Below, one piece after another: positions 25,322 through 45,227 of a stretch of DNA of 64,000 bases. Every line of letters begins with the position of its first letter. Positions within the stretch are counted from its first letter, which is position 1. The position numbers and the translations under genes are program-made. The notes under the pieces were generated by a model. That model searched no databases and had not been told where the DNA came from. It worked only from the letters and a program-made list of their open reading frames with translations. Source of the DNA: a virus; the IMG/VR virus record IMGVR_UViG_3300042474_001633, positions 96,283 through 160,282 of that record. One strand, written 5' to 3'.

Positions 25322-25621
25322 GTGTCAATACTAGGGGCATTTATCGCCCATGTCAAGTTCTAGACTGTGCAGTTAGACACACCCACCTGACCACCCACCC
25401 GTCTGACTTGCCGCCATCGTCACAGAAGCGGACAAGCAAGCAAGTCCCTCGAAGAACTCCTCGAGCTGGCGGCCGGCCCTCGAGAGCTGGTTGTTTTGAC
25501 GGGGCTCTAACCTGCCACGAGACATCTAGTTGCGACGGTGGCGGATGACGGACGTGAACGGGTACAGCAGAAAGCCCCACCTGCCGTTGGGCAAGTAGGG
25601 CTTTCTTGGGGGTCGTTGTGA

Positions 25622-25864
25622 TTATTGTGCTTGCTTTATTGCTTCGGACGCATCAAGAATGGCATTTTCCATTACTTTATGCGTAGCCGTTGCGAACAAT
25701 TCGGCGAGCGTTGCTGGCAAAGTGACTAGGTACTTTAGGATTTCTACCTGCTCATCTTTCAGCAATAGTTCTGTAGTGTCGTTGCTAATTTGCTCAAGCA
25801 TTTCGGCAATAGACATACACTCGTCCGCTATCTCTGTAAGCGTTTCTGCTGGCGTTTGGCTCAT
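25622..25864 (-). CDS. Hypothetical early protein
   Basis: AAAGGGGGG SD; TTGACG-N18-TACAAT promoter; start adjusted to MSQTP. Confidence 0.65.
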   Translation of the reverse strand: MSQTPAETLTEIADECMSIAEMLEQISNDTTELLLKDEQVEILKYLVTLPATLAELFATATHKVMENAILDASEAIKQAQ

Positions 25865-25948
25865 TTTCCCCCCTTTCTGATACCTATTGTATGGGGCACA
25901 AGTACCCCACGTCAAGTTTATTTCACGTGACATTGGGCACACGCTATT

Positions 25949-26078
25949 TGTGTCGGGCGTCACACTTGCGTTTGATGTGTCGGCGGTCACGTCCTGCGTG
26001 TCGGGCGTCACACAGCCCTACTATGTGCCGGCAGTCACACTACGTGTCGGGCGTCACACTACGTGTCGGCGGTCACAC
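25949..26078 (+). repeat. Six tandem CRP/GlxR-like boxes (YGTGYCGGNNGTCAC)
   Basis: GTG-N8-CAC at 25950, 25977, 25998, 26025, 26044 and 26063. Confidence 0.75.
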
Positions 26079-26081
26079 CGG

Positions 26082-26095
26082 CGAACAAGTGTTCG
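26082..26095. promoter_or_regulatory. LexA (SOS)-like box CGAAC-AAGT-GTTCG
   Basis: Matches the Gram-positive/actinobacterial CGAAC-N4-GTTCG consensus; near-match at 26942-26955. Confidence 0.5.
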
Positions 26096-26529
26096 GTCAG
26101 CAGCGAAACCGGAGAAATTTTCCGCCGCCGGCTTCCGGTTCGCCTTCGCGGGGACATCGCAATAGCGGGGCTGCGATGTCCCCGACGACTTCTTCTGACG
26201 GTGGCGGATGACGAAGGAACTGAGTTGCTGAAGCAGTTTTGGATACACGAAGTCGGCTTTGATGTCGGGAAGCAAACATCCAAGTCAGGTTGTTGGAAAC
26301 TTTCTTGACAAACCGCATCTCACTTGCTAACACGGAACGTGCGAGGAACTCTGATGGCGTCAAACACGAGAGTCCCGCCAAAACCAGAACCAAACCAAAA
26401 ACCACGAGTGGCTGGGTGTTCTTGGGCAACAAAAAACCCGCCCTTTTGGGCGGGCTAGTTGATTTTTACCCTGCTAGTAGAACTAAAAGGCAAAAAAAGA
26501 TTACATAAGTTGTGGCTTGGGACAAAACA

Positions 26530-26643
26530 TCACCCCCAATTCTCCTTTTTCCATTTTTCCCACTCTTGTTGCTTTCGCTCTATGTAGTCACCGAGCGGTA
26601 TTGCGATAAGAATTGAGACGGCGATTATTTGATGTATCTTCAC
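26530..26643 (-). CDS. 37-aa micro-protein with a hydrophobic N-terminus
   Basis: MKIHQIIAVSILIAIPLG...; TTGACT-N17-TACTCT promoter, AAAGGGGG SD and terminator-like hairpin ~26431-26456. Confidence 0.5.
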   Translation of the reverse strand: MKIHQIIAVSILIAIPLGDYIERKQQEWEKWKKENWG

Positions 26644-27026
26644 TTCACCCCCTTTACTTTTCTATTTAGTAAAGAGTAGTAAGTGGTACGCAGATAGTCA
26701 AGCACTCACACGCACTTCTGTCAAGTTACTACCAAAGTCATGCGTCACAGGCTTTGACCACCAAGAAAGTTGACAACAGGTCGGGTCTAGCCGTTCATGT
26801 GTTCGCAATTGACGACATCACGAGTTCTTCGCCTGGGACTGAGGACACCCCCGTTTGGTAGCGGGGCTGCCAGACGGGGGTCATCTTCTACCGACGGTGG
26901 GGCATGAGTCCCTTCCGTTCGACCTGATGAACACCTGTGGGCGAACACCTGTTTGTTCCAACCGATGTGACGAACTTCATGCCGTACAAGTTGCTTTTTG
27001 TCCCATCTACGGGCTAGCGTGTTGCT

Positions 27027-42527: not shown

Positions 42528-42805
42528 AAACGTTAACTCTTCCGCGGGAATTCGCGACCGGTGTCTACGTGGCATCGCCAGACACTGGGAAAGAACGCGT
42601 GTACATGTTTGAACGAATCATCGATGAGGAGTACGAAAAGGTAAACGCCTGGTTGGCTGCGCATCCTGCAGCAGGTCCTGAGGAGATACTCATCATGCTT
42701 CATGACATCGCACTCGAGTGGGCGGCTGAAGACCTTGGCTTCGACGAGCTCGACGTGCTGTCCCCTCGAGCGGCCGCTAAATTGGAAATCGCATATGCAA
42801 AATAA
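42524..42805 (+). CDS. Hypothetical protein
   Basis: ATGA coupling; 3' half is palindrome-dense. Confidence 0.55.
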   Translation: MKTLTLPREFATGVYVASPDTGKERVYMFERIIDEEYEKVNAWLAAHPAAGPEEILIMLHDIALEWAAEDLGFDELDVLSPRAAAKLEIAYAK

Positions 42806-42831
42806 AAGTATCGCTAGCCGAACGGTGGTGG

Positions 42832-43185
42832 ATGAACCTCATGATTGACAAAGAAAAAGTAAACGCGTCGATGGAGTCTGTGTACATATACGACAAGTTG
42901 ACCGGTGCCGGCTTTCCACTCACTGAAGACATCATGTGCGTTGATATCTCTGATTTATCTCCGGATGAACGCCTGGCTATCTCGGCGAATCAAATGGACG
43001 ACGTCATAGCAAAACATGGCACTACGCTGATTAGTCAACTAGTATTAGCTACTGAGGTCCTTGGCTTCGTTTTAAATGAGCTGTTTGCCAATCAGCCGCA
43101 ACACGTGCAAGACCAAGTCATGTCCAGCGTTAAAAGCGCGCTACTAAAAATCACACGTCCAGGAGGGGACAATGCATCTTTATGA
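42832..43185 (+). CDS. Hypothetical protein (start uncertain)
   Basis: 117-aa ORF. Confidence 0.55.
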   Translation: MNLMIDKEKVNASMESVYIYDKLTGAGFPLTEDIMCVDISDLSPDERLAISANQMDDVIAKHGTTLISQLVLATEVLGFVLNELFANQPQHVQDQVMSSVKSALLKITRPGGDNASL

Positions 43186-43402
43186 ATCTATGAACCTTCG
43201 CGAAACACTGCAGGTGGTGCGCGCTACCAGGGTATACCCGGTCAGCCGGCTGCGAATCGGTTCTCCATGTAAATTTATTCGAAAGCTGGACCTGCTGGTC
43301 CACATCGTGGTGCCCGAGCTCATCGAGAACATCATGCCGCGCTGCGCGCGTTACCTACGTAGAACATCGCCTCGCTGGGGCCGAAGCTGGAGGGGATGGT
43401 AA
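43172..43402 (+). CDS. Hypothetical protein
   Basis: GGAGG SD. Confidence 0.4.
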   Translation: MHLYESMNLRETLQVVRATRVYPVSRLRIGSPCKFIRKLDLLVHIVVPELIENIMPRCARYLRRTSPRWGRSWRGW

Positions 43403-43689
43403 TGATTAACTACATCGTATTCTGCGTAGTATTAGCTTGCGTGCTAGCGAACTAATAAACAATGGTGTACTATAAAAAATCATGAAAGAAAGCAAGACCA
43501 AATATTGGCGCTGCCCAATGTGCAGCCTTGAAGTGACGACACACGTTGGAATAATCGGCTCGCCGGAATGCGGCAGCAAGAGTCACTCGACTAAGCGCGT
43601 CGCAATGGAGCAAGTTAAAAAATTAATCTCCGCTTAGGAGTATCGCATACCAATTGACGGTGGCGGATGATTTGTGGTAGAAATACCAG

Positions 43690-44184
43690 ATGCTTACACT
43701 TACATCATGGAATGACGCCGCTGCACAAAAAACTAAAAGTATCTTCGGGGCTGTTGAAGACAACCTTGTCGTCGTAGCTGGTATTCGCCAGTCCTTCGAA
43801 CGACTTTCTACGTCATATTTTCGAGACACCGCGTTTGATTCGACTGAAACTAAAACAAATGTTCATGCACTCTGGCGAGAGGTTGGTGCAAAAGCAATTA
43901 AATGGGGCAAAAGCAACAACATCGACATCACACCGGATGCTCTGGTTTCCACGTTGATTCGCAAGCAGCGGGACTATGGACACCACAACATTGCTAAATA
44001 CGGCCGCCAGGGCCTCATCATTCGAGTCCACGACAAACTCGCCAGGTTAGAGAACTTGACGAAGAGTGGCACAATTGTCTCAGCCCAAAATGAACCAATT
44101 TCTGACACAGTTCTTGATATTGCCGGCTACTCAGCAATCGGCATGATGTGGGAACACGACTTGTTCTTATTGCCTCTCGTGTAA
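43690..44184 (+). CDS. DUF1599/nucleotide-modification-associated domain 1 protein
   Basis: KQRDYG..NI...GLIIRVHDKLARLENL...NEPISDT.LDIAGYS. Confidence 0.8.
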   Translation: MLTLTSWNDAAAQKTKSIFGAVEDNLVVVAGIRQSFERLSTSYFRDTAFDSTETKTNVHALWREVGAKAIKWGKSNNIDITPDALVSTLIRKQRDYGHHNIAKYGRQGLIIRVHDKLARLENLTKSGTIVSAQNEPISDTVLDIAGYSAIGMMWEHDLFLLPLV

Positions 44185-44774
44185 AAAGTGTGGTGGGGGG
44201 AGTCATTAGACCACCTACCAATCCTCTAACTGCAACCCCCACCACGTGCTGTGAGGGAAGAGAAGGGGAAAACCCCTCGCAGCACTGTTAAGAGTAGCTC
44301 TTCCGGTTTTCGCTGCGGCGGAACCCCAACGGGGCTCTCATTTGCCCTAAATCTTCGACGGTGGCGGAAGAGCCGGCGGCAGGATTACAAGAGCTGTCAT
44401 CAATCGACGCCCAATACACCTTAAACGTGCAGCAAAGTCAACTCGTCGTATCGGGCTGAACGATTCTCATTTTCCGATAAAGCAGTAAGTACTACAACAA
44501 GTTTCCCTTCGAGAATGCGGCAGCTAACGCTGCGCATTTCGAGGGGTGAATCATATTTTTGGAAGAACGATTGTTTTACCGACACACCCACAGACAAGCT
44601 GTATCGTCTTCCCAGTTACTGGTTGTACTCGTATCTCAACCAGGTGTCATCCCCGTGGATAACTACTAACCCAAATAGAAATATAGCGAAAAAAATTCAA
44701 CCGTGTCAAGGACCACTTTTGGTGACTGTTGTCACATATTGACAATTGTGTCTAGAGTCTGTATCCTGGCCGGC

Positions 44775-45227
44775 ATGCCTACTGCTAAACGCCGCAAAAT
44801 ACCCCAGCAGGTCCTCGAGCAGGCCGCCACAGTCCATACAGACGTCGTTACGGCCCTCTGGGAGCTCTGGAGGGGTGTACACACTGCTAAGAACGGCAGA
44901 GGCAACAAGCTGAACCCAAAACGCGTAGAAGACATCTCCGTCGCTGTAATTGCCTATGGATTCGAAGCGTGCGTGCGCGCAATCATAGGAAGTTACTTCT
45001 CCCCCTGGCACATGGGCGACAATCCTGCACAAAAGCGCTACACGTCCATTCATCTAGTTCTTCGATACGGCGAACAGTGGCGAGTAGCTAAGTTCGGAAA
45101 GCTCTATCAAGAAAACCTACAAGACGCGCAAGAGCTACGCCGGCAACATGGGACACTGGTAAACGAGGTAGTAGAACGACCTAGTATTAGTCCGACGGTG
45201 GTAGAAGAAGTAGTGGAGGCAAAGTAG
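44775..45227 (+). CDS. Putative replication initiator-like protein
   Basis: AI.G...SPWHMG.N...KRY....L.LR; lies upstream of a loader-like gene; start adjusted. Confidence 0.5.
   Translation: MPTAKRRKIPQQVLEQAATVHTDVVTALWELWRGVHTAKNGRGNKLNPKRVEDISVAVIAYGFEACVRAIIGSYFSPWHMGDNPAQKRYTSIHLVLRYGEQWRVAKFGKLYQENLQDAQELRRQHGTLVNEVVERPSISPTVVEEVVEAK

What the first reader, a model, noticed from the sequence alone, without database searches (positions are those of the whole stretch)
25534..45208. 19 same-strand copies of a 15-bp asymmetric motif with quasi-periodic ~0.7-0.9 kb spacing
Seen: successive gaps are 663, 696, 894, 738, 668, 854, 667, 1847, 821, 804, 1618, 3869, 770, 1571, 807, 835, 701 and 837 bp. 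The long gaps are near multiples of ~800. Orientation stays + regardless of neighbouring gene direction, and I saw no reverse copy and none outside this interval. The last copy (45194) lies inside a CDS at the expected distance. A degenerate linker (CGGGGCT at 24715, then GAGTTCTTC) lies 785 bp before the first CGGGGCT, at the left edge of the desert. Inference: strict polarity plus regular spacing suggests a physical role (nick site, translocase or Chi-like signal, stepwise injection, protein scaffold) more than gene-by-gene regulation. A stoperator-like repressor site is an alternative, and spacing could partly reflect uniform cassette size.
Basis: partly seen in the sequence, partly recalled or inferred. 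Interest (0 to 1): 0.85.

Follow-up and report, generated by a model that had tools for sequence, protein, structure and literature searches.

The report
Polar boundary motif of phage cassettes
A 15-base motif that always points the same way marks the borders of small, self-contained early-gene cassettes in a family of large freshwater actinobacterial phages; cassettes are gained, lost and swapped at it, and its even spacing comes from cassette size, not from a physical ruler.

Summary
There are 18 strong copies and one weak copy of GACGGTGG(C/T)G(G/T)ATGA. All lie on the + strand at the stated coordinates, and there are none elsewhere in the 160-kb phage genome. The motif is conserved and single-stranded in every related phage examined. 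Relatives carry either dense arrays (16-17 copies) or 3-7 irregularly spaced copies.

In the window, every intergenic gap of 130 bp or more between 25.3 and 45.3 kb holds one copy, 53-124 bp left of the right-hand gene in most gaps. Spacing therefore equals cassette length, and there is no significant long-range phase.

Cargo (promoter-gene-terminator units of unrelated small genes) is reordered and inverted between relatives while motif polarity stays fixed. Three strain-level rearrangements end at the motif or in its flanking repeat.

About 15% of family copies double as the -35 plus spacer of sigma-A-type promoters.

Best reading: this is the conserved core of a repeated boundary scaffold. 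It is probably an operator/stoperator-like protein site, with an HA + sigma-r4-HTH protein as candidate binder, and it also acts as portable homology for cassette shuffling, as PeSLs do in T4-like phages. A nick site or other physical role is not excluded. The scan's other first-stage notes on this genome described the same array.

The parts
25534..45208 (+). Whole array: 19 polar motif copies separating about 18 cassettes in the early, hyperplastic region, downstream of the SNF2 helicase gene
25534..25548 (+). motif copy 1 (exact). Homology with 97% strains resumes exactly here
26197..26211 (+). motif copy 2 (exact), preceded by a 12-bp-stem hairpin with CGGGGCT in the loop
26893..26907 (+). 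motif copy 3 (2 mismatches), hairpin upstream
27787..27801 (+). motif copy 4 (exact)
28525..28539 (+). motif copy 5
29193..29207 (+). motif copy 6, hairpin upstream
30047..30061 (+). motif copy 7 (exact), followed by the minus-strand terminator 30075-30110
30714..30728 (+). motif copy 8, left border of the XRE cassette that is inverted relative to all relatives
32561..32575 (+). motif copy 9, right border of the inverted XRE cassette
33382..33396 (+). motif copy 10
34186..34200 (+). motif copy 11
35804..35818 (+). motif copy 12, in the divergent gap where gene direction switches
39673..39687 (+). motif copy 13, fills a 24-bp gap. A strain-level replacement ends 2 nt before it
40443..40457 (+). 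motif copy 14 (exact)
42014..42028 (+). motif copy 15, immediately followed by TTGACA-N17-TAAGGT
42821..42835 (+). motif copy 16, in a 27-bp gene junction. Its GGTGGA may serve as ribosome-binding site
43656..43670 (+). motif copy 17 (exact). TTGACG-N18-TAGAAA, then ATG 43690: possible promoter use
44357..44371 (+). motif copy 18
45194..45208 (+). weak copy 19 (3 mismatches, PWM 10.6), in the end of CDS 44775-45227, syntenic with copies in relatives
25500..25506 (+). CGGGGCT box 34 nt before copy 1. Equivalent boxes start at 26166, 26862, 27753, 28489, 29159, 30012, 32526, 33347, 34151, 35787, 40414 and 44330
39937..40326 (-). Candidate motif-binding protein: HA domain plus sigma-70 region-4-like HTH, two domains joined by a flexible linker, conserved in all relatives and flanked by motif copies
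31544..31762 (-). XRE-type HTH gene inside the array. Alternative regulator candidate, less likely for an asymmetric site

Best explanation
The motif is the conserved core of a repeated intergenic boundary scaffold. The scaffold consists of CGGGGCT, 16-39 nt of genome-specific spacer, then (T)TGACGGTGGYGGAWGA. It separates autonomous promoter-gene-terminator cassettes in the early, hyperplastic region of a family of about 140-170-kb freshwater actinobacteriophages.

Shown here: one copy sits at nearly every transcription-unit border. Cargo is unrelated, reshuffled and even inverted between relatives while the scaffold keeps its direction. Strain-level gain, loss and replacement of DNA ends at the motif or in its flanking repeat. 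The scaffold therefore acts as portable homology for cassette exchange, as PeSLs do in T4-like phages. Its polarity and confinement follow from recombination between direct repeats. Its spacing is cassette size.

Inferred: the 15-bp core is kept invariant across diverged genomes because it is the asymmetric binding site of a conserved phage protein. It would work as an operator where it overlaps the -35 and spacer of sigma-A promoters, and elsewhere as a stoperator- or insulator-like site. The best candidate binder is the two-domain HA + sigma-r4-like HTH protein at 39937-40326.
For: Motif and polarity. Family-wide conservation, always on one strand.

Placement: the motif occupies 18 of 23 intergenic gaps, including all gaps of 130 bp or more, at a stereotyped position.

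Cassette autonomy: sigma-70-type promoters and terminators flank the minus-strand genes, and cargo proteins are unrelated to each other.

Shuffling: cargo is reordered and inverted between G000, G001 and G009 with motif direction unchanged.

Strain-level events: L112 and L115 (99.7-99.9% identical) differ by one 667-bp cassette, with the crossover in the longest identical stretch of the repeat, +20 to +41. Two replacements end at motif offsets 0 and -2, which I estimate at roughly p = 7e-4 by chance.

Concerted evolution: the -14 to -1 flank is genome-specific while the core and CGGGGCT are shared.

Promoter overlap: TTGACG plus TAnnnT at exactly 17 nt occurs at syntenic sites, and in 11-18 of 120 family copies against 0-2 at other offsets.

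Candidate binder: HA + Sigma70_r4 HTH protein, two folded domains, conserved in the family. The host is an actinobacterium, shown by WhiB and GP88, the group in which stoperator systems are known (PMC9283540).
Against: No binding data exist, and the candidate protein was picked only by domain content and conservation. Orientation does not follow local gene direction in the dense arrays, unlike true stoperators. Most window copies lack TT at -2/-1 and lack a -10 element, so they are not promoters. Distance to neighbouring promoters varies from 16 to over 300 nt. Spacing is more regular than random placement within the same gaps (p = 0.002), and unit length varies less than coding length, which hints at a size constraint this model does not explain. 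The scaffold hairpin is present in only about a third of copies.
Confidence: 0.5

Rival explanations
1. The motif has a physical, strand-specific role. It could be the recognition site of a phage nickase, like the localized single-strand interruptions of T5, phiKMV-like phages and tf. It could also be a Chi-like or translocase-orienting signal read by a machine that tracks along one strand.
For: All copies lie on one strand regardless of gene direction. In tf, all 14 nick sites are in the top strand of a genome with convergent transcription units and cluster in one half (PMC3517423). The core contains GGTGG, as the E. coli Chi site does (my own knowledge). Recombination junctions lie next to the motif. 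Four of 48 complete-contig ends lie within 45 bp of a copy.
Against: The copies are confined to 12% of the genome and sit almost only between transcription units. A subset is built into promoters with exact 17-nt spacing to a -10 element, which a nick or Chi site does not require. Fifteen conserved bases plus a second box are far more than known Chi sites carry. The crossover in the cassette indel fell in the longest identical stretch, not at a fixed point. Contig ends near repeats are also expected from strain heterogeneity.
Confidence: 0.15
2. The motif is a phage-specific (middle or late) promoter or promoter element. It would be read rightward by host RNA polymerase redirected by a phage factor, giving sense transcripts in the right half of the array and antisense, shut-off transcripts across the minus-strand early cassettes.
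For: The core begins with a -35-like (T)TGACG. About 15% of family copies have a proper -10 element. In the right half, copies precede + genes by 11-158 nt. The upstream flank is genome-specific, like a specificity region. A sigma-r4-like protein is encoded nearby.
Against: No sigma-70 r2 domain was found in the genome. The search for a T7-type polymerase was uninformative because its control did not ring. Most copies have no -10 element and no conserved downstream initiation region. About half of the cargo in dense arrays points the other way. Some copies lie in 24-27-bp gene junctions or over start codons.
Confidence: 0.1
3. The motif is the crossover or recognition site of a dedicated site-specific recombination system of unknown type. 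That system would be integron-like and would capture and excise cassettes.
For: Direct repeats bound every cassette. Cargo is exchangeable between positions. Two replacements end within 2 nt of the motif's 5' edge. The element is bipartite and polar, with CGGGGCT sometimes presented in a hairpin loop.
Against: The genome encodes no tyrosine or serine recombinase. The one indel with informative SNPs crossed over 20-41 nt 3' of the motif, in the longest perfect identity, as homologous recombination would. Cargo occurs in both orientations. Homology resuming at the motif is expected whenever the motif is the first shared base.
Confidence: 0.08
4. The motif is a functionless by-product: a selfish or hitch-hiking repeat that spread with cassette duplication.
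For: Flanks show concerted evolution within each genome. Copy number tracks cassette number.
Against: The 15-bp core is invariant across genomes whose capsid proteins are only 74-83% identical and whose flanks have diverged completely. Syntenic copies are retained in sparse genomes.
Confidence: 0.07

Closest known systems
PeSLs (promoter-early stem-loops) of T4-like phages (Arbiol et al. 2010, PMC2839356; Comeau et al. 2014, PMC4122927)
   Same: Both are short composite repeats, a stem-loop followed by a promoter-like box. Both are concentrated in hyperplastic regions and flank small ORFan genes. In both, indels and replacements between close relatives have junctions inside the repeats, which act as portable homology.
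   Different: Here most copies lack a -10 element and are not promoters for the adjacent gene. The cargo carries its own promoter and terminator and may face either way. The core is a 15-bp box conserved across genera, whereas PeSL cores are generic sigma-70 promoters. The host is an actinobacterium. Mini-circles were not tested.
Operator/stoperator sites of Cluster A mycobacteriophages (L5 gp71; PMC9283540) and Cluster CA Rhodococcus phages (PMC5721134)
   Same: Both are 13-15-bp asymmetric sites in about 20-30 copies, located in intergenic gaps of actinobacteriophages. Both include a -35-like TTGAC(A/G) followed by GC-rich bases (my own reading of the L5 consensus). Some copies are true promoter operators. 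The plausible binder here is a monomer with two different DNA-binding domains.
   Different: Orientation does not follow local transcription in the dense arrays. The sites are confined to 20 kb rather than spread over both genome arms. No gp71-like repressor and no integrase were detected, and the phage looks lytic. The sites are also recombination junctions.
Localized single-strand interruption sites of phages T5, phiKMV-like phages and tf (PMC3517423)
   Same: Both are consensus sites of 9-19 bp found on one strand only, independent of gene direction and unevenly distributed along the genome.
   Different: Nicks were not, and could not be, shown here. This motif is nearly exclusively at transcription-unit borders and partly built into promoters.
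Integron attC cassette arrays
   Same: Both are tandem arrays of single-gene cassettes separated by a polar repeat, with cassette order and content varying between relatives.
   Different: There is no integrase and no attC-type imperfect palindrome. The cassettes carry their own promoters and occur in both orientations. The one crossover that could be mapped looks homologous rather than site-specific.

Membership tests
Cluster A-type stoperator system | Many copies of a short asymmetric site in intergenic gaps and promoters | tested here: met
   There are 19 copies, with 18 in intergenic gaps. About 15% of family copies overlap the -35 and spacer of promoters.
Cluster A-type stoperator system | Site orientation correlates with direction of transcription (PMC9283540) | tested here: not met
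   All copies are + while the cassettes from 25-36 kb are minus-strand. Cargo is inverted between relatives without motif inversion. The feature holds only in sparse relatives and in the right half of the array.
Cluster A-type stoperator system | gp71-type immunity repressor and temperate lifestyle | tested here: not met
   No integrase or resolvase was found. The candidate HA-HTH protein has no sequence or fold match to the solved repressor. A whole-genome search for gp71 homologues was not run.
Cluster A-type stoperator system | Sites spread over the whole genome | tested here: not met
   All copies lie within 19.7 kb of 160 kb.
PeSL-type mobile regulatory cassettes | Repeat located in hyperplastic regions flanking non-conserved small genes | tested here: met
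PeSL-type mobile regulatory cassettes | Indels and replacements between close relatives have junctions in the repeats | tested here: met
PeSL-type mobile regulatory cassettes | Repeat is a functional early promoter plus terminator stem-loop serving the adjacent gene | tested here: not met
   Most copies have no -10 element. A stem-loop is present in about one third of copies. The cargo has its own promoter and terminator.
PeSL-type mobile regulatory cassettes | Mini-circles formed by recombination between neighbouring repeats | not testable with these tools
   This needs inverse PCR or long reads from infected cells or virions.
Integron cassette array | IntI tyrosine recombinase with attI next to the array | tested here: not met
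Integron cassette array | attC imperfect inverted repeats; promoterless, co-oriented cassettes | tested here: not met
Localized nick sites (T5, phiKMV, tf) | Consensus present on one strand only | tested here: met
Localized nick sites (T5, phiKMV, tf) | Physical single-strand breaks at the site in virion DNA | not testable with these tools
Cluster K start-associated sequences (SAS/ESAS) | Motif lies a few bases upstream of start codons, co-oriented with the genes | tested here: not met
   Only copies such as 42821 fit. Distances to the next + start range from 11 to 158 nt, and 11 cassettes face the other way.

The most novel reading that the evidence does not exclude
The polarity may be functional rather than a by-product. 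The motif, together with CGGGGCT, could be a strand-specific site, either a nick or entry point or an orientation-dependent protein roadblock, at which an unknown phage machinery acts. That machinery would both insulate early cassettes and trigger their exchange. The result would be a recombinase-free, integron-like gene-capture platform with a preferred cassette size of about 0.65-0.9 kb.
Probability: 0.12. Interest if true: 0.8.

Novelty: new variant of a known kind. Interest (0 to 1): 0.55.

Why it matters
The finding gives a concrete, sequence-defined handle on how large lytic actinophages build and renew their early, host-takeover gene sets. The element is conserved and directional, and nearly identical natural strains can be seen to differ by whole cassettes at it. 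It extends the PeSL idea from T4-like phages of Gram-negative hosts to an unrelated actinophage lineage. It also links that idea to the operator/stoperator logic of mycobacteriophages. The 15-bp core and the HA + sigma-r4-HTH protein form a testable regulator-site pair. The array is also a natural catalogue of single-gene modules, each with its own promoter and terminator.

Tried and rejected
- Nucleotide search of cultured phages found nothing. The capsid protein is closest to those of Gordonia and Brevibacterium phages, at about 48% identity.
- A literature search for the motif string returned only chance primer matches.
- Periodicity: best period 793 bp with R = 0.79, against null values of 0.71 (p = 0.15-0.18), so there is no phase coherence.
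- Hairpin as a universal RNA or single-stranded DNA structure was rejected. Only about a third of 51 copies fold strongly, the mean z is -1, and there is no strand asymmetry (30 against 21).
- Known RNA families: only one sub-threshold chance hit, and no tRNA in the array.
- Tyrosine recombinase, serine recombinase and sigma-70 r2 are absent. The T7-type RNA polymerase search was uninformative because its control did not ring.
- Cargo paralogy as the cause of uniform unit length was rejected: no blastp hits among 38 array proteins.
- RecA-NDp/PafBC-type promoter, DnaA box and anti-Shine-Dalgarno pairing were considered from memory. All were dropped because spacing or key positions do not fit.
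- The fold search with the HA-HTH model gave no significant match. Only weak sigma-r4, Mor, C and resolvase-HTH rows appeared.
- Contig ends near motif copies (4 of 48 within 45 bp) are too few and too ambiguous to use.
- The idea that short genes are padded to a fixed unit length was weakened. The 'empty' cassette 26197-26893 holds a 37-aa gene and a convergent small ORF or sRNA.

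
Full report
**What is there**

The motif read at 25534 is GACGGTGGCGGATGA. Allowing up to 3 mismatches, the window holds 22 matches against 1.3 expected from shuffles. The other three are chance-level 3-mismatch hits.

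The window is the last 64 kb of a 160,282-bp IMG/VR virus record. In the whole record there are 18 forward and 0 reverse copies at up to 2 mismatches, all inside the interval. A PWM built from the copies finds the same 19 and nothing on the other strand. The consensus is RACGGTGG[C/T/G]G[G/T/C]ATGA.

In 13 of 18 copies a second polar word, CGGGGCT, lies 17-36 nt upstream. CGGGGCT occurs 16 times on the + strand and once on the - strand in the genome, with 14 of the + copies in the array. Between the two boxes this genome has (G)TTCTTCT.

**Who carries it**

The capsid protein has about 390 relatives in IMG/VR. Many are on 140-170-kb contigs. The nearest cultured relatives are Gordonia and Brevibacterium phages at about 48% identity. 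The genome encodes WhiB and a GP88-family protein, so the host is an actinobacterium.

All eight complete or near-complete relatives that I searched carry the motif, always on the strand of the capsid gene and always clustered. G001 has 16 copies and G009 has 17, with 650-900-bp spacing. G002-G005 and G010 have 3-7 copies at irregular spacings of 300-7000 bp.

A collection-wide scan gave 37 multi-copy loci, none with copies on both strands. Across 120 distinct copies only the 15-mer and a preceding T/TT are conserved. The 14 nt upstream are specific to each genome: GTTCTTCT here, AAGCACTATTT in G001, CGTTAG..AAT in G004. CGGGGCT is shared by the three dense arrays. The pattern is concerted evolution of the flanks around a functionally constrained core.

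**Relation to genes and to spacing**

Gene calls from public assemblies of the same phage, together with promoter and terminator scans, show a consistent architecture.

- From 25-36 kb the array consists of small minus-strand genes.
- Each has its own sigma-70-type promoter, and several promoters are placed as for leaderless mRNAs.
- Each has a strong intrinsic terminator.
- From 36-46 kb the genes are on the plus strand.

Eighteen of the 23 intergenic gaps between 25.3 and 45.3 kb hold one copy, including all 15 gaps of 130 bp or more. In the large gaps the copy sits 53-124 bp to the left of the right-hand gene. Spacing is therefore the length of a transcription unit. The four long gaps are multi-gene units.

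There is no significant long-range phase (best period 793 bp, p = 0.15-0.18), and sparse relatives are irregular. Spacing is nevertheless more regular than random placement inside the same gaps (13 against 8.2 spacings of 650-900 bp, p = 0.002). Unit length also varies less than coding length (slope 0.28). Part of that is selection of the short gaps, and part is hidden content: the 'empty' unit 26197-26893 holds a 37-aa gene and a convergent small ORF or sRNA. I leave a possible lower size limit near 650 bp open.

**Cassettes move, the motif does not**

Translated comparison of the arrays of G000, G001 and G009 shows that the right half is syntenic. In the left half, cargo is reordered, often unique, and sometimes inverted.

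- The five-gene XRE unit at 30714-32561 is inverted here relative to all six relatives compared.
- The 42821-43656 cargo is inverted and relocated in G001.

In every case the flanking motifs keep their direction. Cargo proteins are unrelated to each other.

Natural strains give three clean events.

1. L112 and L115 are 99.7-99.9% identical and differ by exactly one 667-bp cassette carrying a 79-aa gene. SNPs place the crossover 20-41 nt 3' of the motif start, in the longest perfectly identical stretch of the 49-bp repeat.
2. Against 97% strains, 124 bp upstream of copy 1 is replaced, and homology resumes at the first base of the motif.
3. At copy 13, 258 bp (with a 60-aa ORF) replaces 82 bp, and the replacement ends 2 nt before the motif.

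Two of six strain-level breakpoints falling within 3 nt of a motif start has a chance probability of roughly 7e-4 (my estimate). The crossover in the longest identity, the absence of tyrosine and serine recombinases, and cargo in both orientations all point to homology-driven exchange at a portable repeat. They do not point to a dedicated site-specific system. Recombination between direct repeats also explains why all copies point one way and stay in one region.

**What the conserved core does**

In the sparse genomes the motif reads TTGACGGTGGTGGAAGA. At syntenic sites it is followed, after exactly 17 nt from TTGACG, by TGnTAnnnT. That makes it the -35 and spacer of a sigma-A-type promoter. 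Family-wide, TAnnnT occurs at offsets 21-23 in 18 of 120 copies, against 0-2 at other offsets.

Most copies, including nearly all in this window, have no -10 element and often C instead of T at -1. Some sit in 24-27-bp gene junctions or over start codons. The core is therefore not kept for promoter activity. A protein-binding site that sometimes overlaps a promoter fits best, as with the L5-type operator/stoperator (PMC9283540).

The array encodes a protein with an HA domain and a sigma-70 region-4-like HTH (39937-40326). It is conserved in all relatives at 43-99% identity, and the model shows two folded domains joined by a flexible linker. Such a protein could read an asymmetric 15-17-bp site whose 5' end is -35-like. 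This is inference only. The fold search gave no significant match.

**Why it is not a member of the known families**

- True stoperators follow the direction of transcription, are spread genome-wide, and belong to temperate phages with a gp71-type repressor. None of these holds here.
- PeSLs are working promoter-terminator pairs for the adjacent gene. Here the cargo brings its own.
- Integrons need an integrase and attC sites.
- The one-strand nick sites of T5, phiKMV-like phages and tf (PMC3517423) share the polarity, and this reading cannot be excluded.

**Verdict**

The element is a new variant of known kinds: a conserved, directional boundary box that organises and reshuffles an early-gene cassette array in actinophages.

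Noticed in passing
window 25927-26095: Five to seven tandem GTGYCGGNNGTCAC(AC) boxes (GTG-N8-CAC, CRP/GlxR-like) lie upstream of the minus-strand gene 25622-25865. Single boxes of the same type sit just upstream of the -35 of other cassette promoters, for example GTGACCACAAGCAC before the promoter at 28373.
   Followed up: partly
window 25356-25328, 28373-28345, 29053-29025, 29732-29704 (minus strand): Four cassette promoters (TTGACA/T-N17-TAnnnT) end 6-7 nt before the start codon. This implies leaderless mRNAs, as is common in Actinobacteria.
   Followed up: partly
window 26305-26643: The cassette without a called gene holds a 37-aa hydrophobic minus-strand ORF (26530-26643) with its own promoter. 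It also holds a convergent plus-strand promoter (TTGACA-N17-TAACAC near 26305) driving a roughly 120-nt small ORF or sRNA. The two share the bidirectional terminator 26435-26456.
   Followed up: partly
L112, L114, L116, L117 versus L113, L115 (strain contigs; left edge of the array, window about 25400-25550): There is a population polymorphism. Some strains carry an extra 667-bp cassette with a 79-aa gene between the 81-aa and 80-aa genes. Three different scaffold configurations coexist at this one border among 97-99.9% identical strains.
   Followed up: yes
window 25440-25490, 28400-28470, 40390-40430, 41930-41990, 42740-42790: GC-rich 6-8-bp palindromes (CTCGAG, GCCGGC, GCGGCCGC, CCGCGG) are crowded just upstream of several motif copies. 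Other first-stage notes report the array as otherwise poor in such sites.
   Followed up: no
G002 region (L094/L095), G003 (L093), G004 (L092): Each sparse relative has its own second short repeat close to the main motif: GTAGATAAGT in G002, GTAGGTAACT in G003, GAGATAGAAAA in G004. It is often followed by GGGAAGTCTGTCCC and a TGGTACGCT -10-like box. This may be a fast-evolving operator set beside the conserved core.
   Followed up: no
window 36679-39014: A conserved pair, an AAA_5 ATPase (245 aa) and a 532-aa protein of unknown family (PHROG 33218), sits in the middle of the array in all relatives. It resembles MoxR/CobS-like ATPase plus partner pairs.
   Followed up: no
window 11971-21544: This stretch holds replication and nucleotide genes typical of actinophages: ParB_N protein, AAA_25 helicase-like protein, WhiB, DUF932, MazG, T4 endonuclease V-like protein and a PAPS-reductase-like protein. 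Five tRNA genes lie at 18244, 19388, 50840, 51610 and 55946.
   Followed up: partly
window 24715-24760: CGGGGCT and GAGTTCTTC occur without a following motif, inside the 5' end of the SNF2 helicase ORF. This is either a decayed scaffold or chance.
   Followed up: partly
family-wide (loci L118-L235): Spacings between adjacent motif copies show a sharp mode at 613-900 bp (58 of 145 distinct pairs). None fall between 432 and 612 bp, and a minor group lies at 112-431 bp. Homologous units were not collapsed, so the gap may or may not reflect a size constraint.
   Followed up: partly
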